A model generated the notes under the pieces. The model saw nothing but the letters and a program-made list of their open reading frames with translations, searched no databases and had not been told where the DNA came from. Positions 796 through 43,422 of a DNA stretch of 64,000 nt are shown piece after piece. The position numbers were made by a program, and so were the translations under genes. The stretch lies in NCBI GenBank assembly GCA_017938435.1, contig JAGBBO010000027.1, positions 2,264 through 66,263 of the forward strand. Reading direction: 5' to 3'. Positions within the stretch are counted from its first letter, which is position 1. Each line of letters opens with the position of its first letter. This DNA is from Alphaproteobacteria bacterium (GTDB lineage: Bacteria; Pseudomonadota; Alphaproteobacteria; Rs-D84; CACZYB01).

Positions 796-1043
796 TATTG
801 GCTTTAATATTTTATCTGTCTATAATCTCCCAAAATAAAATATTTTGAGGCATATTATGAATTATAGCAAAGATGTTGTTTTACCTGCCCCCATAACACT
901 ATAGTAAAAATGAAGTTTTGCCATTTTACAACTCCTATATTTTTCGAAAAGTATATAACAAAGAAATTTAAAAGACAATAATCTTTTAATGCTTGATTTT
1001 CTTCCCATAATTATATATAATATAGCCAAGAGAAATTAAAGGG

Positions 1044-3137
1044 TTGAAAATGAAAAAGTTACTTACATATTGCTCATTATTTATTTTAACTGGTTGCCTT
1101 ACCGATAGTGGTACAACTGTATCTCGTGTTAATACATCAACAACAACTGGAACAAATTCTGAACACGAAAAAAATGAAACAACCTCTACATCGACTTTGG
1201 GGGCTCTTTCAAATATAAAATCTATTGAAAACCTTATCACAACAGAAAATAACAATCGTATCATTAATGCATTCAAAACATATAACGAGGAACAATCAGC
1301 TGAAGATAAGAAAGTTTCTGCTGATAAAACAAATATTGCACAGGCAACAGAATATCTTAAACAAGCAAAAACCGGCAATATAAATATTTCAGAAATGATA
1401 ACCGCCATTGATACATTAGTTGCAAAATATTATGATTATTCACCTAAAAAACTTTCATATGATACTTTATCAAAATATTCTCTTGAACTACAAGGGGATA
1501 AGGATGAAACTGCATACGCTGAATACCTTGTTAATAATGTTAATCAAAGTATTATCACAAAAAAGAAAGATGATTTTACAGGAACCGATACGCAAAGTGC
1601 AACTGCACAATATATTGCATATGTTCAAAAGACTTATTTTGATAAAATAAAAACTGATGCAACATTCACTTCATCTGTCACATCTGATTATGCAGGAAAG
1701 GATTATACTGCTGATAATTATATCGGGCTTATGACTGCATTAAATACAAAAAAGGGAGAATTAAAAACTAACACTTCCGCTCTTGAAAGTGAAATTAAAA
1801 CTAATTTAAAAAAACTTGATCCAACAGTAAATGAAATTCCTCTTACAATAGAAAGTGTTATTTCATATTGGCAAAAACAATTAAAAATCCTTAATGTTAT
1901 AAAGGATGTATCCTACCTTTCATCATCGACTATTGATTCCAATGATATGAAAACAAATATATTGGGAAATGATATAACTGTGGGTTATACTTATAACAAA
2001 GCATTAAATGACTACACATTGGATTTGAAAAAGAATGAATATACAGTTTCATTCAAAGCTGCCGATTTCAAAAAAGATGCAAATCATCTTTCATACACTG
2101 CAACAAATAAAAGAGATGATGAAGTAGTTGAAAATAATCCTGTATTTATGACTAATTTAAAGAAATATTTATCTGATGGTGGAAAAACCTCCGATGAAAT
2201 AAAAGCTCGTGCCGAATACGCAATAAAGTTATTCAAGGCTATAAAATCCGAAGCAGATAGAAAAGATGGTGATACAACTGTCTATGCAAATGATGCACAA
2301 AAAACTGAATTTTTAAACTTAACAGATGGCTATGTATCAAACATCAATAATTTAACGGACAGTTCAAGCGAAGATTATAAAAACTTTAATATCGCATTGA
2401 TAATTCTTCAAAGCAAAGGTATGACCCCCGAAGATTTCGAATTGAAAAAGACTGTTTCAACAACAGATACTGTTTACCTTGGTGGAAATTATGCCGGTCT
2501 ATCATTCTCTGATTTTGGTGTTTGGAATATTTCATCAAGTAATACTTATACTGGAAATAAAACTTTGCTTAATTATCTAAAAAATACTGTTGCAAAAGAC
2601 ACTAGTTCATCAGAAAATTATTCATTCTATAGTGGTCTTGATAGTCTAAAACAAAAGACTTTAAAGGATGAATCTATGGGTGATAAAGAAATAGTATTCA
2701 CAGGAAACACTATTGGTTACGGAACATTAACTGGAAAAGCAGAAGCTGATACTCAAAAGGTAAATCTTAATGGAACCGCAAAACTTAATGTCACAGCAAG
2801 GGATGCAAATGCTTATTTAACATTAACATTTCCTAAATGGTATGGTTTCCGAATTAACAGTATTAACCTACAAAACAAAGACGGTTTTTCCAAAGAATTT
2901 ACAGGAAACACTTCCGAAGCATACATAAATAGTTCTTGCACATCATGTGGTTGGTTTAAGTCTGATGAAAATGGCAGTATCAAACTTACTGGTTCAGTAA
3001 ATGGTGCACAATATGGACTAGAAGAAAATACTCCAACCGAAGCAGTTGGTGTTTATAAAATAACTTCTTCTGATGTCGATACGGAAAAATATACTGATAT
3101 AAAAATCGAAGGTGCATTTGGTGTAAAAAAGCAATAA
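1044..3137 (+). CDS. large surface lipoprotein, possibly TbpB-like handle/barrel family
   Basis: Signal peptide with lipobox LTGC. Long Thr/Ser/Asn-rich body. C-terminus GAFGVKKQ resembles the C-terminal strand of TbpB-like surface lipoprotein barrels, but this rests on recollection only. Confidence 0.45.
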   Translation: MKMKKLLTYCSLFILTGCLTDSGTTVSRVNTSTTTGTNSEHEKNETTSTSTLGALSNIKSIENLITTENNNRIINAFKTYNEEQSAEDKKVSADKTNIAQATEYLKQAKTGNINISEMITAIDTLVAKYYDYSPKKLSYDTLSKYSLELQGDKDETAYAEYLVNNVNQSIITKKKDDFTGTDTQSATAQYIAYVQKTYFDKIKTDATFTSSVTSDYAGKDYTADNYIGLMTALNTKKGELKTNTSALESEIKTNLKKLDPTVNEIPLTIESVISYWQKQLKILNVIKDVSYLSSSTIDSNDMKTNILGNDITVGYTYNKALNDYTLDLKKNEYTVSFKAADFKKDANHLSYTATNKRDDEVVENNPVFMTNLKKYLSDGGKTSDEIKARAEYAIKLFKAIKSEADRKDGDTTVYANDAQKTEFLNLTDGYVSNINNLTDSSSEDYKNFNIALIILQSKGMTPEDFELKKTVSTTDTVYLGGNYAGLSFSDFGVWNISSSNTYTGNKTLLNYLKNTVAKDTSSSENYSFYSGLDSLKQKTLKDESMGDKEIVFTGNTIGYGTLTGKAEADTQKVNLNGTAKLNVTARDANAYLTLTFPKWYGFRINSINLQNKDGFSKEFTGNTSEAYINSSCTSCGWFKSDENGSIKLTGSVNGAQYGLEENTPTEAVGVYKITSSDVDTEKYTDIKIEGAFGVKKQ

Positions 3138-3220: not shown

Positions 3221-4606
3221 ATGGAAAACAAAAACGAATTGGCTGTAAAGCCGATACACTCTTTAATTATTAAATTTGCCCTACCATCAATCATCGCATT
3301 TTTGGTAAGTTCACTTTATAATATAGTCGATCAAATTTTTGTTGGAAATTATTCCGGATATTTGGGTAATGCCGCAACATCTATCGTATTTCCAATTTTC
3401 ATTTTTGGTATGGCTATTGCAAGTTGCATTTCCGATGGTGGTGTTGCATACTTCTCACTTCAACTTGGTGCTGGGCATAAAAAAATTGCAGAAAAAATTT
3501 TTGGTAATGTAATAAGTCTGCTTATCATTTTTCCTTTACTTATCACATTGGGTTCCTACATTTTTCTTGATGATATATTGGATTTTTTGGGGGCTACAAA
3601 AGAAATTTTTCCATTGGCAAAAAGCTATGCTCAAATTATGTTTATTGGAATACCAGTTTTTCTTCTTGGTATGGGATTAAACGCATTTATCCGTGCTGAT
3701 GGAAGTCCAAAATATGCAATGATTTCAATGCTTATTGGTGCAATTTTAAATCTTATTTTAGATCCAATTTTCATATTTACATTTGATTGGGGAATTGCCG
3801 GTGCTGCATGGGCAACCGTTATCTCAGAAATATTTTCATTTATTTGGGCTATTTCCTACCTTCCTAAATTTAAGGCAATGAAAGTAAAAATCAAAAGTTT
3901 AAAACTAAGTTTTCCTATCATAAGAAAAATTGTAACTTATGGAATTTCAAATTTCCTTATTTCATCCGCAATGACATTTGTTGTAATTGCATTTAATAAC
4001 AGCCTTAAAAAATATGGTGCAGAAAGTATTTATGGAAGCAACATTCCCCTTTCTGCCTACGCCCTAACTGCAAAGGTCAACCAAATATTTATGTCATTTA
4101 TGATTGGTTTAGGTATCGGTCTTCAACCTATTGTTGGTTTCAACTATGGCGCACGCAATTACAAAAGGGTAAAAGACACATTCAAAACCACTTTAAAAAT
4201 AGCAATATTTATAGGTCTAATATTTTCAATTTTACTTCAATCATTCCCATATATTTTCATAAGGATGTTTGGTTCAGGATCCAAACTTTACTATGACTTT
4301 GCAAGTATGTCATTTAGAATAATTTTCATAGGACAAATTTTCATTGCAACTTGTATAATCACAAGCAATTTTTTCCGTGCCATTGGTCGTCCATGGATGG
4401 CAGTCCTTTCCGCAGGTTCGCGTTTTACTGCATTTTTCATTCCTGCAATCTATTTTCTACCAAAAATTTTTGGTATAAATGGTGTCCTTTGGGTAACACC
4501 AACCACCGAATTTTTATCAGCCACATTCTCCCTATGGCTTATATCACTTGAAATGAAAAAGTTAAATAAATTGATAAAAAACGAAGAACGAAGGAAATCG
4601 ATTTAA
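3221..4606 (+). CDS. MATE family multidrug efflux transporter
   Basis: 461 aa with 12 predicted TM segments. The two-lobed hydrophobic repeat architecture and length are typical of MATE (NorM/DinF) transporters. Confidence 0.75.
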   Translation: MENKNELAVKPIHSLIIKFALPSIIAFLVSSLYNIVDQIFVGNYSGYLGNAATSIVFPIFIFGMAIASCISDGGVAYFSLQLGAGHKKIAEKIFGNVISLLIIFPLLITLGSYIFLDDILDFLGATKEIFPLAKSYAQIMFIGIPVFLLGMGLNAFIRADGSPKYAMISMLIGAILNLILDPIFIFTFDWGIAGAAWATVISEIFSFIWAISYLPKFKAMKVKIKSLKLSFPIIRKIVTYGISNFLISSAMTFVVIAFNNSLKKYGAESIYGSNIPLSAYALTAKVNQIFMSFMIGLGIGLQPIVGFNYGARNYKRVKDTFKTTLKIAIFIGLIFSILLQSFPYIFIRMFGSGSKLYYDFASMSFRIIFIGQIFIATCIITSNFFRAIGRPWMAVLSAGSRFTAFFIPAIYFLPKIFGINGVLWVTPTTEFLSATFSLWLISLEMKKLNKLIKNEERRKSI

Positions 4607-4664
4607 TGTTGCAATGCCATAAAGTTTATGATAAAATTTAAACATATTTAAAGAGGGGAAAATT

Positions 4665-5402
4665 ATGTTTAAAAATTTAAAAATCATAAGTTTAATTTTA
4701 CTTTGCAGTTGCACCGTTGCAAATAATGAAAAAATCTATACCGACCTTATTCCAACAATCAGGAATAAAGGCGAAGGTTCAATTGCATCAATCCAAGAAA
4801 AAAATCTTTTTGTTTGCAACATTGATGAAAAGGAAGGTCCGCAAAATTATTGTGATAAAGATGGTAAACTTTTTAATGGAACTATTACACAAAATTATGA
4901 TGATATAAAAATTCAATATATTTTTAAAAACGGAAAACCGGTAAAGGAAAAAGATTTTGAAAATGGTAAACTTGTTTCTTCATCAAATATTAAAATGACT
5001 TTTCCTATTGACTTGCCACGCATTTATTCAACAAAATATTACGATGAAAATGGGAAAATTTCATCCGAATATAAATTTGATAATGGAGAGGCAAAATCTA
5101 CACTAAAAACATTCTGTCCTGACGGTTCAATAGAAAAAGAAATAAAAATAAGTCAAACTACAAATAATAGAAATATAGCTGTAACCAAACAAACAACATA
5201 TAAAAAATTTAAAGCAGATGGTTGGTCTCTACCAATAACTAAATTCGAACATTTAACATTAAAATTAAACCCAAAATATCCTTCGTTAAAAAAAGAAGAC
5301 TTCGGAATTATAGGTTTTTACACCGGCAAAGTTGACATACTCAACTGTAATAACGAAGTTGTTGAAACATACAATTTTGAAAACGGTAAGAAAATCGATT
5401 AA
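4665..5402 (+). CDS. lipoprotein with MORN/YwqK-like repeats, paralogue A
   Basis: Lipoprotein signal peptide (LLCSC). Repeated x-Y-x-NGK motifs. Start region and coding sequence are duplicated at 5490. Confidence 0.6.
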   Translation: MFKNLKIISLILLCSCTVANNEKIYTDLIPTIRNKGEGSIASIQEKNLFVCNIDEKEGPQNYCDKDGKLFNGTITQNYDDIKIQYIFKNGKPVKEKDFENGKLVSSSNIKMTFPIDLPRIYSTKYYDENGKISSEYKFDNGEAKSTLKTFCPDGSIEKEIKISQTTNNRNIAVTKQTTYKKFKADGWSLPITKFEHLTLKLNPKYPSLKKEDFGIIGFYTGKVDILNCNNEVVETYNFENGKKID

Positions 5403-5489
5403 AAACGAAGAACGAAGAAAATCGATTTAATGTTGCAATAACATAAAGTTTATGATAAAATTTAAACATATTATAAAGAGGGGATAAAA

Positions 5490-6284
5490 ATGTTTAAAAA
5501 TTTAAAATATGCAAGTTTCATCTTGCTTGTCGGCTGTGCTGCAATAAATAATCAAGAAAAAATTTACACTGACCTTATTCCAACAATCGTTGGTGAGGAA
5601 GAAGGCGATGTTTCATTCATTCAAGATGAAAATCTTTTCGTTTGCAATATCGATGATAAAAAGGGTCCTCAATCATTTTGTGATAAGGACGGAAAACTTT
5701 TCACCGGTCGTGTTGAAATGGATCTCGACGATGATAGCCTAAAAATATTTTATGTTTTCGAAAATGGTAATGTGGTAAAGGAAGAAAATTACGAAAACGA
5801 TAAACTTATCAGTTCATCAGATGTAAAATTGAATAACTTTCTTCCTGCTTTTCCAAAGGCATATTCAGAAACATTCTATAATGACAACGGTACCATAAAG
5901 GCAATATACAAATATGATAACGGTAACCGCTCTTCTGTTTTAACAGTATATTGCCCTGACGGTTCAAGGGAAAAAGAAGTAACCGTAATGCAGGATACAA
6001 CAACCGAACGAATTGATCCAACAAAGATATTAACAGTATATTGCCCTGATGGTTCAAGGGAAAAATAAGTAACTGTAATGCAGGATACAACAACCGAACG
6101 AATTAATCTAACAAAGATAACTCATTTCTTTAAAACAAATACAGAATATGGAATGTCAAAATTTGAATCATTCGTTTATCCTGCACAATACTTATCTGGT
6201 AACTATACCGGCATTGCCGAAATCAAAGATTGTAACGGAAATACTGTGGAAACAGTAAGACTTGAAAACGGTAAGAAAATCTGA
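5490..6284 (+). pseudogene. lipoprotein paralogue B, interrupted by a nonsense codon inside a 90-bp in-frame tandem duplication
   Basis: Lipobox LVGC and homology to paralogue A along its length. ORF 5490..6068 ends at a TAA (GAA to TAA) inside the second copy of the 90-bp repeat. ORF 6078..6284 continues the homology, ending ...ENGKKI as paralogue A ends ...ENGKKID. Confidence 0.5.
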
Positions 6285-6287
6285 ATT

Positions 6288-7334
6288 TTAATCCCGTTCA
6301 AAAAGACAAACCAATTCTAAATGTTTGGTATTTGGAAACTGATCGACTGGTGTAATTTTCTTTAATTTATACCCACCATCACAAAGGATTTTTGCATCAG
6401 TTTTAAATGCCAATGGATTACACGAAACATACACAACAGTTTTAACTGAACTTTTCGCAATCTCCAAACATTGAGCCCTTGCCCCATCGCGTGGTGGATC
6501 CAAAACAATCACATCCATCTCAGAAATTTTATCCGCACGCAAAGGATGCTTAAATAAATCCATCGCCTTTGATTCAATATTAAAATGATAAGAATTTGCA
6601 ATCCTTTTTAATTGATGCACTGCCTCATCATCACAATCAATAGCCAATACTTCATCAGCAACATCCTTTAAATAAAATGAAAAAAGCCCAAGCCCACAAA
6701 AAATATCACCTGCTTTTTTAAAATGATTTTTTCCCAAATACGAAAGAACAATATCAACAATTTTTTGCTCTGTTTCCTTTGCCGGTTGTAAAAAAGTTTT
6801 TGCCGGATACGGAATTTTCACAGAATTAAATATAACAATAGGTTCTTCTTTTTTATAAAGTTCCTCCGCCCCACTTGTAATACGAAGCACATTATATTTC
6901 TCGGCAAATTCCTTTATCTTCTGCCTATCAAGAAGCATTATATTTATATTTTCGAAATGCAAAGTCAAACCATTATCAACCTTTGCAACAACAATGTTTC
7001 CATCACTTCGTTTCACAAAAGATTTAAAAAGTTTTTTAAGAGGTAAAAGAAGTGCATTTATTTCTGGCAACAAAAGAGGACATTTTTGAACTGATACAAC
7101 ATCATTTGACTTTGCTTTAAAAAAACCAATATTACAACCATAATCAATTTTAAATGTTGCCTTTCGCCTTATACCACTTTCAAAAGTAATAATAGGCTCC
7201 AACTTTTCAAATGAAACACCATCCAAAAGCGACTTCAGATGATTCATTTTTTGCATTTCATATTCTACCCTATCAATACCTTGAATCTGGCAACCACCAC
7301 AAACACCAAAATATATACACTTATTTTCTATCAT
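6288..7334 (-). CDS. RNA (uracil-5)-methyltransferase, TrmA/RumA family, RlmC/RumB-like (Fe-S Cys cluster, no TRAM domain)
   Basis: N-terminal CIYFGVCGGCQIQ cluster. C-terminal SAM-MTase region with DPPR and conserved Cys (VSCNP). About 350 aa. Confidence 0.65.
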   Translation of the reverse strand: MIENKCIYFGVCGGCQIQGIDRVEYEMQKMNHLKSLLDGVSFEKLEPIITFESGIRRKATFKIDYGCNIGFFKAKSNDVVSVQKCPLLLPEINALLLPLKKLFKSFVKRSDGNIVVAKVDNGLTLHFENINIMLLDRQKIKEFAEKYNVLRITSGAEELYKKEEPIVIFNSVKIPYPAKTFLQPAKETEQKIVDIVLSYLGKNHFKKAGDIFCGLGLFSFYLKDVADEVLAIDCDDEAVHQLKRIANSYHFNIESKAMDLFKHPLRADKISEMDVIVLDPPRDGARAQCLEIAKSSVKTVVYVSCNPLAFKTDAKILCDGGYKLKKITPVDQFPNTKHLELVCLFERD

Positions 7335-7796: not shown

Positions 7797-8924
7797 TTAT
7801 CTTTGTTCTGCAAAATTATTCAAAACAATACCTTCAATATTTTTAGTATTAGTATTTCTAACTAATTCATCGAATGCTTGTTTCTGTGTTTTTACATCTT
7901 TACCATCAAACACTTTTTGATAAACCGCATGATTTGATGGAACACTTAATTCCCATTTATATGGTTTAAATTTAGTTCTATCAGCACCAAGTTCTAATAC
8001 TTCTGGAATAAAATTCATTTGTTCAACAGTCGCAGTCAAATCCAATCCTTTCTTAACAACTTCGTTAAGCAAGTAATAATAATCAGCAGCAGGAAATGTT
8101 GAATCTTGAAGATTATAATCGTTAATAAAAACTATGCCATTTTCTTTTTGGAAAATTTTTGCAATAGATTTTCTTTTTCCATCTTCGGCTTCTTCTTTTG
8201 TAAGCATAACAACAGTTTGATTATTAAGCATCCCTTTTTTTAAAGCATCATAAAATGCATTAACTGGTTCAAAATCATTTGATTTATCACCCTTTGTAAA
8301 AGAACGAAGACCATGAAAAACTATTGCACCATTTTTACCATCTTTTACAAAATCAGAACCTGCCTTTGCAAAAATTTCTTTTGTATTTTCTTTAAAACTT
8401 CCATCAGGAAGAGAAACTCTTCCTCCCATAAAAAATGCCTTTGCATCCCCAGACAAAACATTTGAAATAATCTCTGTTATTGGATTAAGTCTTGCAAAAT
8501 CAGAAGCTCTTTCTTCTATATTTTTCTTTGATGACGAAGCAACCAAATCAGCAGGATAAGATGAAATTTTTACATCAGGATTTCTTTCTTTATATTGGCT
8601 AATTGCCTCCTCTGGCATAACAAGAGAAATATTTTTAATATTTTTCATTTCTATATCATAAAATTTATCACTAGAAAGAACCAAGTTTATATTTTTTGCG
8701 ACATCTTTGTTTTCTGCAACTTTTTCAAAAAACTTAATACCCATATCCGCAGCACTTACGACAGAAATTTTACCATCTTTTCCTGCTTCAAGAACTTTTT
8801 CTTCTGCATTATCCAATGATAAATCAATAATTTCCTTATCTTTTACATCTTCAAGCAAAGACTTTACAGTATTTGAATAACCTTTAAATGTTGCTTCATC
8901 AATAATTCCAAAATATTTAACCAT
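7797..8924 (-). CDS. hypothetical protein (375 aa, no signal peptide)
   Basis: Long ORF with an RBS. No family recognised. Confidence 0.45.
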   Translation of the reverse strand: MVKYFGIIDEATFKGYSNTVKSLLEDVKDKEIIDLSLDNAEEKVLEAGKDGKISVVSAADMGIKFFEKVAENKDVAKNINLVLSSDKFYDIEMKNIKNISLVMPEEAISQYKERNPDVKISSYPADLVASSSKKNIEERASDFARLNPITEIISNVLSGDAKAFFMGGRVSLPDGSFKENTKEIFAKAGSDFVKDGKNGAIVFHGLRSFTKGDKSNDFEPVNAFYDALKKGMLNNQTVVMLTKEEAEDGKRKSIAKIFQKENGIVFINDYNLQDSTFPAADYYYLLNEVVKKGLDLTATVEQMNFIPEVLELGADRTKFKPYKWELSVPSNHAVYQKVFDGKDVKTQKQAFDELVRNTNTKNIEGIVLNNFAEQR

Positions 8925-42693: not shown

Positions 42694-43422
42694 TTATTTT
42701 AGATTTTTCGTCATATTGTGTAAATGAGCATTTGTCATTTCTTTTTTTTCACCATCAATATCATACATATAACCTGATACAGCTTTACCATCTTTAAAAT
42801 TTACTTCTTCTTTTAAATTTCCATTATTATAATAGGCTTTGGACAAACCTTCCAGCTTACCATCTTTATAATTTTCTTCTGCTTCTAAATTTCCGTTTTC
42901 ATAATAGGTTTTGGACAAACCTTCCTCCTTACCATCTTTATAATTTACTTCTACTTTTAAATTTCCATTATTATAATATCCTTTGCCTAAACCTTCCTCC
43001 TTATCATCTTTAAAATTTTCTTCTGCTTTTAAATTTCCGTTTTCATAATAGGCTTTGGACAAACCTTCCGGCTTACCATCTTTATAATTTCTTTCTGCTC
43101 TTAAATTACCATTATCATAATAGAATTTGCTTAAACCTTCTAGTTTATTATCTTTATAATTTACTTCTTCCTTCAAATTTCCATTATTATAATATACTTT
43201 GCCTAAACCTTCCAACTTACCATCTTTATAATTTACTTCTACCTTCAAATTTCCATTATCATAATAACGTTTTACAATTCCTGTAATTGGCTCTCCTTCC
43301 AAATCACAAAGCATAAGAATTGCATTTTGAGAACAATCTTTAGTTTCATTTACATTATATTCTTTTGCATTAGCTGTAAATGATGTAATTAAAGCAAATA
43401 GTGTAATTATAAGTTTCTTCAT
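42694..43422 (-). CDS. MORN/YwqK-type repeat lipoprotein (8 tandem 23-aa repeats)
   Basis: Signal peptide. Repeats of YY-NGNLK-E-NYKDGK-EGL. The underlying DNA is a 69-bp tandem repeat array. Confidence 0.8.
   Translation of the reverse strand: MKKLIITLFALITSFTANAKEYNVNETKDCSQNAILMLCDLEGEPITGIVKRYYDNGNLKVEVNYKDGKLEGLGKVYYNNGNLKEEVNYKDNKLEGLSKFYYDNGNLRAERNYKDGKPEGLSKAYYENGNLKAEENFKDDKEEGLGKGYYNNGNLKVEVNYKDGKEEGLSKTYYENGNLEAEENYKDGKLEGLSKAYYNNGNLKEEVNFKDGKAVSGYMYDIDGEKKEMTNAHLHNMTKNLK

What the first reader, a model, noticed from the sequence alone, without database searches (positions are those of the whole stretch)
4570..6284. Tandem lipoprotein gene duplication with a microhomology junction and a 90-bp intragenic repeat carrying a nonsense codon
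The lipoprotein gene and its upstream region (4576..5402) are duplicated at 5401..6284. The duplicated segment begins inside the last 10 codons of the MATE gene. A remnant KNEERRKSI* is recreated at 5401..5430. The short repeat aaaatcgatt lies at both junctions. Inside copy B, a 90-bp unit (5940..6029) is repeated in frame at 6030..6119 with 5 substitutions. One of these turns GAA into TAA and splits the gene (5490..6068 and 6078..6284). This points to active expansion and decay of a MORN-like lipoprotein family.
Basis: seen in the sequence. Interest (0 to 1): 0.5.

Follow-up and report, generated by a model that had tools for sequence, protein, structure and literature searches.

The report
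Stacked variant lipoprotein genes, one truncated
An uncultured gut bacterium of ruminants carries two old, very different versions of one fast-evolving lipoprotein gene side by side, the second cut short by a stop codon found in every known copy; this is ordinary surface-protein gene turnover, not an assembly error or a fresh duplication.

Summary
The sequence observation is correct. Copy A is intact (4665..5402, 245 aa). Copy B (5490..6284) has an in-frame 90-bp tandem repeat (5940-6029 / 6030-6119, 5 mismatches) and a TAA at 6066-6068. The last 30 nt of the MATE gene recur at 5401-5430.

It is not an assembly artefact. The identical DNA occurs on 13-15 contigs from independent metagenome assemblies. 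A fourth study has the same A|MATE-remnant junction.

It is not a fresh duplication. The A and B coding regions are about 63% identical in DNA, but the 89 bp upstream of each are 94% identical. Related strains carry 0, 1 (A only, B only or a mosaic) or 2 copies between the MATE gene and rlmD.

All four known B alleles share the repeat and the stop. No intact B was found among 5.8 billion proteins. Frameshifts have accumulated downstream of the stop; upstream of it the ORF, promoter, ribosome-binding site and lipobox are intact.

Best reading: two old allele classes were stacked once by illegitimate recombination in a 23-nt imperfect homology, at a locus where alleles recombine. The resemblance to MORN repeats is remote and below Pfam's threshold. 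Interest is low to moderate.

The parts
3221..4606 (+). MATE family efflux transporter gene (461 aa). Its last 10 codons, including the stop, are the source of the duplicated remnant.
   Evidence: Pfam MatE E=2.9e-44; NCBIfam TIGR00797 180.6 bits
4554..4576 (+). Patch inside the MATE gene that resembles the last 23 nt of the lipoprotein gene. It is the left partner of the illegitimate-recombination junction.
   Evidence: 17 of 23 identical to 5378-5400 in register (offset 824), P about 1e-5; the similarity is lost further left
4609..4637 (+). Sigma-70-like promoter of copy A: TTGCAA, 17 nt, TAAAAT, with an extended -10 TG.
   Evidence: This site and the one before B are the only two in the region with the TG. 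The TTGCA and TG..AAAAT elements are kept before every allele in other strains.
4653..4658 (+). Shine-Dalgarno sequence GAGGGG of copy A, 6 nt before the ATG.
   Evidence: Read in the sequence
4665..5402 (+). Copy A: intact putative lipoprotein, 245 aa. N-terminus MFKNLKIISLILLCSC with Cys16; conserved Cys51, 63, 151 and 228.
   Evidence: An orthologue 96% identical is NCBI MAG protein IJ473_01780.
5378..5400 (+). 3' end of copy A: the right partner of the junction homology.
5401..5430 (+). Remnant of the MATE tail (KNEERRKSI*) carried along with copy B.
   Evidence: 29 of 30 identical to 4577-4606. The same remnant sits at the same junction in L014, whose own MATE tail differs.
5433..5461 (+). 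Sigma-70-like promoter of copy B, the same hexamers and TG as before A.
5478..5483 (+). Shine-Dalgarno sequence GAGGGG of copy B, 6 nt before the ATG.
   Evidence: Read in the sequence
5490..6068 (+). Copy B, open N-terminal part: 192 aa plus TAA. Lipobox LLVGC with Cys16; Cys52, 64, 155 and 185.
   Evidence: The same truncated product is found in three other haplotypes, P0005-P0007.
5940..6029 (+). 90-bp repeat, unit 1 (LTVYCPDGSREKEVTVMQDTTTERIDPTKI).
6030..6119 (+). 90-bp repeat, unit 2, in frame, 5 mismatches; it carries the nonsense codon.
6066..6068 (+). TAA nonsense codon (GAA in unit 1), codon 193 of B.
   Evidence: Present at the same codon in all four B alleles.
6078..6284 (+). Residual 68-aa ORF, the former C-terminal part of B (it contains the Cys equivalent to A Cys228). 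It has no signal peptide and is decaying.
   Evidence: It is frameshifted by +4 nt in L006/L007, has a 3-nt deletion in L008, and there is a 1-nt indel at 6272.
6288..7334 (-). Convergent rlmD-like 23S rRNA (uracil-C5) methyltransferase gene: the right border of the variable slot.
   Evidence: NCBIfam PRK13168 E=1.6e-57; Pfam PF05958

Best explanation
The slot between a MATE efflux gene and the convergent rlmD gene in an uncultured, 30% G+C alphaproteobacterium from the ruminant gut is a strain-variable accessory locus. It holds a fast-evolving, Cys-containing, all-beta putative lipoprotein gene that is remotely like MORN-variant repeat proteins.

At least three old allele classes circulate and recombine: A, B and a P0004 type. 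In the window's strain, A (intact) and B are stacked head to tail.

The stack was made once, by illegitimate recombination inside a 23-nt imperfect homology between the lipoprotein's 3' end and the MATE 3' end. Copy B therefore brought along the last 10 MATE codons plus its own promoter and ribosome-binding site. The most likely route is homology-facilitated illegitimate recombination, with rlmD as the homologous anchor. An unequal sister-chromosome exchange followed by allele replacement is the alternative.

Before these strains diverged, B acquired a 30-codon internal tandem duplication (slippage of one beta-hairpin unit) and then a GAA to TAA nonsense mutation in the second unit.

The sequence after the stop is now neutral and decaying. 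The 192-codon front part is probably still expressed as a shortened lipoprotein.

Shown: the anatomy, the copy-number polymorphism, the single origin of the junction, the age order, and the shared stop.

Inferred: the recombination route, expression of B, lipidation, and diversifying selection as the driver.
For: - Anatomy.
- Independent assemblies with identical DNA.
- Haplotypes: A+B in the window and in L014. B only in L006/L007 and L008. A only in L016-L023 (17 contigs). A single distant allele in L009-L012, L015 and L029. No lipoprotein gene at all in the GTDB relatives L024, L025 and L026.
- Single origin of the stack: L014 has the identical A|remnant junction. Its remnant equals the window-type MATE tail, not L014's own diverged tail.
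- The junction is younger than the A/B split: coding regions about 63% identical, against 29/30 and about 53/58 identical in the remnant and intergenic parts.
- Single copy is the ancestral state: the A-only strains and the outgroups share the 4-nt overlap with rlmD.
- Junction homology 17/23. Homology-facilitated illegitimate recombination (HFIR) uses a homologous anchor plus 3-10-bp microhomologies (PMC6382021).
- All four B alleles carry the repeat and the TAA. Downstream there are 3 indels in 216 nt, 2 of them frame-disrupting. Upstream there is one in-frame indel in 579 nt.
- No intact B among 5.8e9 proteins.
- A promoter with extended -10 and a Shine-Dalgarno sequence precede both copies.
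- Mosaic alleles: L013 is B-type over nt 1-170 (95-100%), A-type over 170-600 (92-98%) and L009-type over 600 to the end (88-94%). P0009 is B-type to codon 33, then A-type.
- Faster evolution than the flanks: dN/dS 0.3-0.4 for A and 0.3-1.0 for B, against 0.04-0.23 for the MATE and rlmD genes.
Against: - All data are metagenome contigs; no reads or long reads were seen.
- The mosaics (L013, P0009) each rest on one short contig and could in principle be chimeric. Against that, the longest exact A/B match in the coding regions is 20 nt, well below the assemblers' k.
- The high identity of the upstream segments could also come from gene conversion after an old duplication.
- The upstream segment of L006 mixes A-type and B-type variants in a way that no single crossover explains.
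- The 3' 25 nt of A in the tandem haplotypes look B-like, so the history is more tangled than one event.
- The dN/dS values for B rest on 2-8 substitutions per class. The excess of frameshifts downstream of the stop is only P=0.07.
- Lipidation is not verified. The signal peptide is short, and the strict PROSITE PS00013 pattern fails at position -10 (Lys6).
Confidence: 0.6

Rival explanations
1. A simple in-situ tandem duplication of one gene in this lineage, followed by fast divergence of the copies and decay of B. The promoter and remnant would be kept similar by selection or gene conversion.
For: - Head-to-tail layout with a duplicated MATE tail and junction homology.
- Both copies share the C-terminal 20-nt block TTGAAAACGGTAAGAAAATC.
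- B-only strains could arise by deletion between the 89-bp upstream repeats.
Against: - The non-coding MATE remnant is 29/30 (window) and 30/30 (L014) identical to a true MATE tail, while the coding regions are about 63% identical.
- Between species this upstream segment is no better conserved than the flanks, 75-83%, so selection does not explain 94%.
- A is closer to the single-copy P0004 (72% nt) than to B (63%).
- B occurs alone, directly after the MATE gene, in two haplotypes with different upstream types.
Confidence: 0.17
2. Copy B is kept as a partial donor cassette. Segmental gene conversion from B into an expressed copy generates mosaic lipoproteins, an antigenic-variation-like system.
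For: - Mosaic alleles with B-type 5' segments in otherwise A-type genes: L013, P0009, and a short B-like patch in P0003.
- B is retained with its defect across all known B-bearing strains.
Against: - B has its own promoter, Shine-Dalgarno sequence, start codon and signal peptide, unlike silent cassettes.
- There is only one such copy.
- B-only strains have no expression-site partner.
- The mosaics are seen between strains or lineages, not within one clone.
- The A alleles next to B (window, L014) show no B-derived tracts except perhaps the last 25 nt.
Confidence: 0.1
3. The tandem copy, the 90-bp repeat or the stop codon is an assembly or sequencing artefact.
For: Repeats are where assemblers err. 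Logan contig L005 starts 47 nt before B, inside the repeated promoter segment.
Against: - Identical sequence in 13-15 contigs from different samples and two assembly pipelines.
- The same junction appears in a different study with about 2% diverged sequence (L014).
- The repeat and the TAA are present in four diverged alleles from four studies.
- The two 90-bp units differ at 5 sites, so they are not a collapsed or expanded identical repeat.
Confidence: 0.02

Closest known systems
MORN-variant repeat proteins (Pfam PF07661 MORN_2; often annotated as YwqK-family proteins)
   Same: - An all-beta hairpin array with recurring NGK/DGK-type turns.
- A profile of the family finds mainly MORN_2 proteins as distant hits; 6 of the 10 tested pass Pfam's cut-off.
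- hhalign against the window's own canonical MORN_2 protein (42694..43422, minus strand): 72% probability, E=3.4e-5 over 161 columns.
   Different: - A and B score 12.9 and 13.5 bits against a gathering score of 29.6.
- The repeats are irregular.
- There are four conserved Cys and a lipobox.
- The family-specific motifs (EKIYTDLIPTI, CDKDGKLF, CPDGS, ILDCNG) are not MORN features.
Homology-facilitated illegitimate recombination, and microhomology-mediated tandem duplication
   Same: One side of the insert (rlmD) is fully homologous. The other side joins at a short imperfect homology, 17/23 nt with 2-5-nt exact runs at the crossover. HFIR is described as anchor-dependent integration ending in 3-10-bp microhomologies (PMC6382021).
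   Different: The event was not observed directly. Natural competence of this organism is unknown. A replication-slippage or unequal sister-chromatid duplication followed by allele replacement gives the same product.
Highly polymorphic surface lipoprotein loci maintained by recombination and balancing selection (for example Borrelia ospC; from my own knowledge)
   Same: One chromosomal slot holds deeply divergent allele classes (about 50% amino-acid identity) among strains whose flanks differ by 1-2%, with mosaic alleles.
   Different: There is no homology to OspC. Surface exposure, the host or phage pressure, and balancing selection are not shown. Here two alleles are stacked, and some relatives lack the gene.
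Pseudogene donor-cassette systems for antigenic variation (Anaplasma msp2/p44, Borrelia vls, Neisseria pilS; from my own knowledge)
   Same: A defective paralogue lies next to an intact one, and mosaic alleles exist.
   Different: B keeps its promoter, ribosome-binding site, start codon and signal peptide. There is a single copy, not an array. No within-clone conversion is shown.

Membership tests
Pfam PF07661 MORN_2 repeat proteins | Whole-protein score at or above the Pfam gathering threshold (29.6 bits) | tested here: not met
   A 12.9 bits and B (repeat removed) 13.5 bits. P0008 16.4 bits; P0004 no hit.
Pfam PF07661 MORN_2 repeat proteins | Remote homology to bona fide MORN_2 arrays, detectable with profiles | tested here: inconclusive
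   hhalign 72% probability, E=3.4e-5. The distant hmmsearch hits (E 1e-8 to 1e-3) are mostly MORN_2 proteins. tblastn against the window's MORN_2 gene gives E=1e-4.
Pfam PF07661 MORN_2 repeat proteins | Fold: an array of beta-hairpins forming an elongated antiparallel sheet | tested here: inconclusive
Bacterial lipoproteins (signal peptidase II substrates) | N-terminal basic region, hydrophobic core, and lipobox [LVI][ASTVIC][GAS]C | tested here: inconclusive
   Read in the sequence: A is MFKNLK-IISLILL-CS-C16 and B is MFKNLK-YASFILL-VG-C16. This is conserved in all family members and in the distant relatives P0011 and P0016. The strict PROSITE PS00013 pattern fails at position -10 (Lys6) because the signal peptide is very short. 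No LipoP or SignalP predictor was available.
Microhomology-mediated tandem duplication / HFIR product | Head-to-tail units, one novel junction, and short homology between the sequences joined | tested here: met
   The units are offset by 824-825 nt. The junction is 5400|5401. In-register homology is 17/23.
Microhomology-mediated tandem duplication / HFIR product | The copies were identical when the junction formed (true duplication), as opposed to heterologous donor DNA (HFIR or allele stacking) | tested here: inconclusive
   The coding regions are 63% identical and the upstream segments 94%. This favours heterologous alleles at the time the junction formed, but gene conversion cannot be excluded.
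Silent-cassette antigenic variation systems | Donor copies lack a promoter and a start codon, and are used for segmental conversion within a clone | tested here: not met
   B has a promoter-like site with an extended -10, a Shine-Dalgarno sequence, an ATG and a signal peptide. Conversion within a clone cannot be tested with these tools.
Pseudogene (copy B) | A disrupting mutation, plus loss of constraint on the disrupted part | tested here: met
   The TAA is present in all four alleles. The downstream part shows a +4-nt frameshift (L006/L007), a 3-nt deletion (L008) and a 1-nt indel. Whether the upstream 192 codons are also unconstrained is undecided: dN/dS is 0.3-1.0 on very small counts.

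The most novel reading that the evidence does not exclude
The truncated copy B is not junk but a maintained partner of A. Either it is a distinct, shortened lipoprotein: the 30-residue duplication restores a fourth cysteine (Cys185) that replaces the lost C-terminal Cys, so the protein can still form two disulfides. Or it is a reservoir of variant 5' sequence that recombines into expressed alleles, giving a small two-gene variation system in a gut commensal alphaproteobacterium.
Probability: 0.15. Interest if true: 0.5.

Novelty: new member of a known kind. Interest (0 to 1): 0.27.

Why it matters
This is a clean natural example of how a bacterial surface-protein locus turns over. Within one uncultured lineage the slot is empty, holds one allele, or holds two stacked alleles. 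The recombination junction is readable, mosaic alleles exist, and a nonsense mutation has persisted through the divergence of strains.

It also defines a very small, unannotated lipoprotein family, about five clusters at 50% identity among 1.84 billion proteins, that is remotely related to MORN-variant repeats.

It opens no new kind of mechanism. Its value is for annotation: B should be called a truncated gene or pseudogene, not two genes. It could also serve as a strain marker for ruminant-gut metagenomics.

Tried and rejected
- Assembly artefact: rejected on independent contigs.
- Stop-codon reassignment or readthrough: rejected. The MATE gene, A and rlmD all end in TAA. The ORF after the stop is frameshifted in L006/L007.
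- Reinitiation at ATG 6078 to make a functional 68-aa product: rejected. There is no Shine-Dalgarno sequence, no signal peptide, and the ORF is not conserved.
- A structured RNA or riboswitch in the conserved upstream segment: no Rfam match at E up to 1.
- Search for the family in GTDB species genomes: none found with the lipoprotein profile. JGI metagenomes gave none with B and one P0004-like single-copy locus with the profile.
- NCBIfam: no family for A or B.
- Pfam DUF2963 hit on B: 14.6 bits against a cut-off of 22.6, ignored.
- Deriving the B-only haplotype L006 from the tandem by a single crossover between the upstream repeats: its pattern of variants does not fit.
- My first microhomology calculation used the wrong register, offset 825. 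It was redone at offset 824.
Full report
**1. What is in the sequence**

The window has 30.4% G+C.

- At 3221..4606 lies a MATE efflux gene (Pfam MatE, E=2.9e-44).
- Two ORFs with the same start follow. Copy A is 4665..5402 (245 aa). Copy B starts at 5490 and reads through to 6284 except for a TAA at 6066-6068. This gives 5490..6068 (192 aa) and a residual ORF 6078..6284 (68 aa).
- A convergent rlmD-like methyltransferase gene ends at 6288.
- A and B are homologous over their whole length (tblastn E=5e-64, 46% identity).
- Tandem Repeats Finder reports a 90-bp, 2.0-copy array at 5940-6119 (94% identity, score 325).
- The five differences are at 5960/6050, 5976/6066 (GAA to TAA), 5984/6074, 6015/6105 and 6019/6109.
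- 5401-5430 repeats the last 30 nt of the MATE gene (KNEERRKSI*) with 29/30 identity.

The 10-mer aaaatcgatt is at 5391-5400 and 5418-5427, not 'at both junctions'. A tandem duplication has one novel junction, here 5400|5401. The homology that matters is in register: MATE 4554-4576 against the last 23 nt of A, 17/23 identical (P about 1e-5). It disappears further left, 9/34.

**2. It is not an artefact**

- The exact A protein is on 13 contigs and the exact 192-aa B product on 15. These come from several samples and two pipelines: ENA assemblies of the XIEF21 ruminant set, and Logan. The DNA of 4000-6600 is 100% identical in all loci fetched.
- A contig from another study (L014, SRR22213168), with about 2% diverged genes and an 89%-identical MATE 3' end, has the same A|remnant junction.
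- One Logan contig starts 47 nt before B, inside the repeated upstream segment. A de Bruijn assembler would do that if both copies exist.

**3. The population picture**

Haplotypes at the slot between the MATE gene and rlmD:

| State of the slot | Loci |
|---|---|
| A+B | window, L001-L005, L014 |
| B only | L006/L007 and L008, with two different upstream types |
| A only | L016-L023, 17 contigs; includes NCBI MAG 'Alphaproteobacteria bacterium' protein IJ473_01780 |
| One mosaic gene | L013 |
| One distant allele | P0004 in L009-L012 and L029; P0008 in L015 |
| No lipoprotein gene | GTDB species genomes RUG13061, RUI239 and MAG035, where the MATE gene abuts rlmD directly |

- The A-only strains and the outgroups share a 4-nt overlap of the gene's stop with the end of rlmD. 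One copy with that overlap is therefore the older state.
- Flanks of the A, B and A+B strains are 98-100% identical (dS 0.02-0.06).

**4. Order of events**

- A and B coding regions are about 63% identical in DNA. A is closer to the single-copy P0004 allele (72%) than to B.
- By contrast, the remnant plus intergenic segment before B is about 94% identical to that before A.
- In L014 the remnant matches a genuine MATE tail 30/30, and by eye the whole segment before B matches the MATE tail and intergenic of the A-only strain L016.
- Between species this segment is no better conserved than the flanks, 75-83%. Selection on the promoter therefore does not explain the discrepancy.
- The junction is thus much younger than the A/B split. 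Two pre-existing allele classes were stacked, rather than one gene being duplicated and then diverging.
- The same junction occurs in two backgrounds, and in L014 the remnant does not match that strain's own MATE tail. This points to a single origin followed by spread through recombination.

A plausible route is homology-facilitated illegitimate recombination. Incoming DNA from a B-bearing strain would pair in rlmD and join at the imperfect 23-nt homology. That process is described as RecA-dependent, anchor-dependent integration ending in 3-10-bp microhomologies (PMC6382021). An unequal exchange followed by allele replacement would look the same. This step is inference.

**5. State of copy B**

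- All four B alleles (window, L006, L008, L014) have the 90-bp duplication and the TAA at codon 193.
- Searching a repaired B against 5.8 billion proteins returns only 193-aa truncated forms.
- The alleles differ by about 2% (dS 0.02-0.04, like the genome background). The repeat and the stop therefore predate the divergence of these strains.
- Downstream of the stop (216 nt) there is a +4-nt frameshift in L006/L007, a 3-nt deletion in L008, and a 1-nt indel at 6272.
- Upstream (579 nt) there are 18 substitutions and one in-frame codon indel, with no disruption. The contrast in frame-disrupting indels is suggestive only (Fisher P=0.07).
- dN/dS of the front part is 0.3-1.0 on 2-8 changes per class. 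It is 0.30-0.43 for A and 0.04-0.23 for the flanks.
- Both copies are preceded by TTGCAA-17-TAAAAT with an extended -10 TG. These are the only two such sites in the region. Both also have GAGGGG 6 nt before the ATG. These elements are kept before every allele in other strains.

I therefore think B is transcribed and yields a shortened protein, and that its tail is dead. That is inference.

One curiosity: full-length proteins have four conserved Cys after the lipobox Cys (51, 63, 151 and 228 in A). Truncation removes the last one, but the duplicated unit supplies a second CPDG Cys (155 and 185), so the number is again even.

**6. Recombination among alleles**

- L013 is a three-part mosaic: B-type over nt 1-170 (95-100% identity to the window's B), A-type over 170-600 (92-98%), and L009-type from 600 to the end (88-94%).
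- P0009 is B-type to codon 33 and then A-type.
- P0003 has a short B-like patch.
- Upstream types and gene types are also reshuffled.
- Each mosaic rests on one short contig. Against chimeric assembly, the longest exact A/B match within the coding regions is 20 nt, too short for k=87-141 assemblies to cross.

**7. What the protein is**

- There is no Pfam or NCBIfam family at threshold: MORN_2 scores 12.9 and 13.5 bits against 29.6.
- The family is tiny. It has 8 clusters among 5.8 billion proteins and 5 representatives at E<1e-10 among 1.84 billion.
- More distant lipoprotein-like relatives (P0011, P0016) share the YTDL, CDKDG and ILDC motifs.
- The other distant hits are mostly true MORN_2 proteins, 6 of the 10 tested.
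- hhalign against the window's own canonical MORN_2 protein (42694..43422, minus strand; 140.9 bits, 7 repeats) gives 72% probability, E=3.4e-5.
- 'MORN-like' is thus a fair description of a resemblance, not a demonstrated membership.
- The N-terminus (MFKNLK, hydrophobic core, L-[CV]-[SG]-C16) looks like a short lipoprotein signal peptide. No predictor was available, and the strict PROSITE pattern fails by one position.

**8. Verdict**

The interpretation needs correcting in three ways:

- This is not active expansion but a 0/1/2-copy accessory slot.
- The two copies are old alleles joined recently.
- The nonsense codon is old and shared, not a fresh lesion.

This is a new member of a familiar kind of thing: a variable surface-lipoprotein locus with a truncated paralogue. 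It is of modest interest.

Noticed in passing
window 42694..43422 (-): A canonical secreted MORN_2 repeat protein: 242 aa, 7 repeats, 140.9 bits. It is the only other sequence in the window with detectable similarity to the lipoproteins (tblastn E=1e-4).
   Followed up: partly
window about 796..1043; compare L016 1281..2386 and L006 1596..2384: Between the DsbA-like gene and the 697-aa gene, other strains carry a thymidine kinase gene (PF00265). L016 also has a 97-aa ORF there. The window's strain lacks both: another insertion/deletion polymorphism close to the lipoprotein slot.
   Followed up: no
window 7797..8924 (-): A 375-aa gene with no Pfam family, between the cold-shock gene and the RND transporter gene. 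It is absent from strain L006. In L009 its place is taken by sugar-modification genes (epimerase, CTP_transf_3, polysialyltransferase-like PF07388, GT8). This is a second variable slot.
   Followed up: no
window 1044..3137 (+): A 697-aa protein with a lipoprotein-like N-terminus (MKMKKLLTYCSLFILTGC) and no Pfam or NCBIfam family. It is conserved as a 695-aa gene in related strains.
   Followed up: no
L013 112..846; P0009; P0003: Mosaic lipoprotein alleles. L013 has B-type, A-type and L009-type segments. P0009 switches from B-type to A-type after codon 33 and then runs into unrelated sequence. P0003 is an A-type N-terminus fused to a MurA-like (PF00275) sequence on a 936-bp contig, probably a chimeric or rearranged contig.
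   Followed up: partly
window 5377..5396 and 6262..6281: The last 20 nt before the ends of A and B are identical (TTGAAAACGGTAAGAAAATC). A-only strains differ there at three sites. The 3' end of A in the tandem haplotypes may therefore have been converted by B.
   Followed up: partly
window 6272; L006, L008, L014: The window's B has one extra T (GGTAAG against GGAAG) compared with the three other B alleles. This changes the last residues from ENGRKSEF* (stop overlapping rlmD) to ENGKKI*.
   Followed up: yes
L024, L025, L026 (GTDB species genomes RUG13061, RUI239, MAG035): In these relatives (MATE protein 71-90% identical) the MATE gene is directly convergent with rlmD, with no lipoprotein gene. 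In L025 the two genes overlap by 4 nt.
   Followed up: yes
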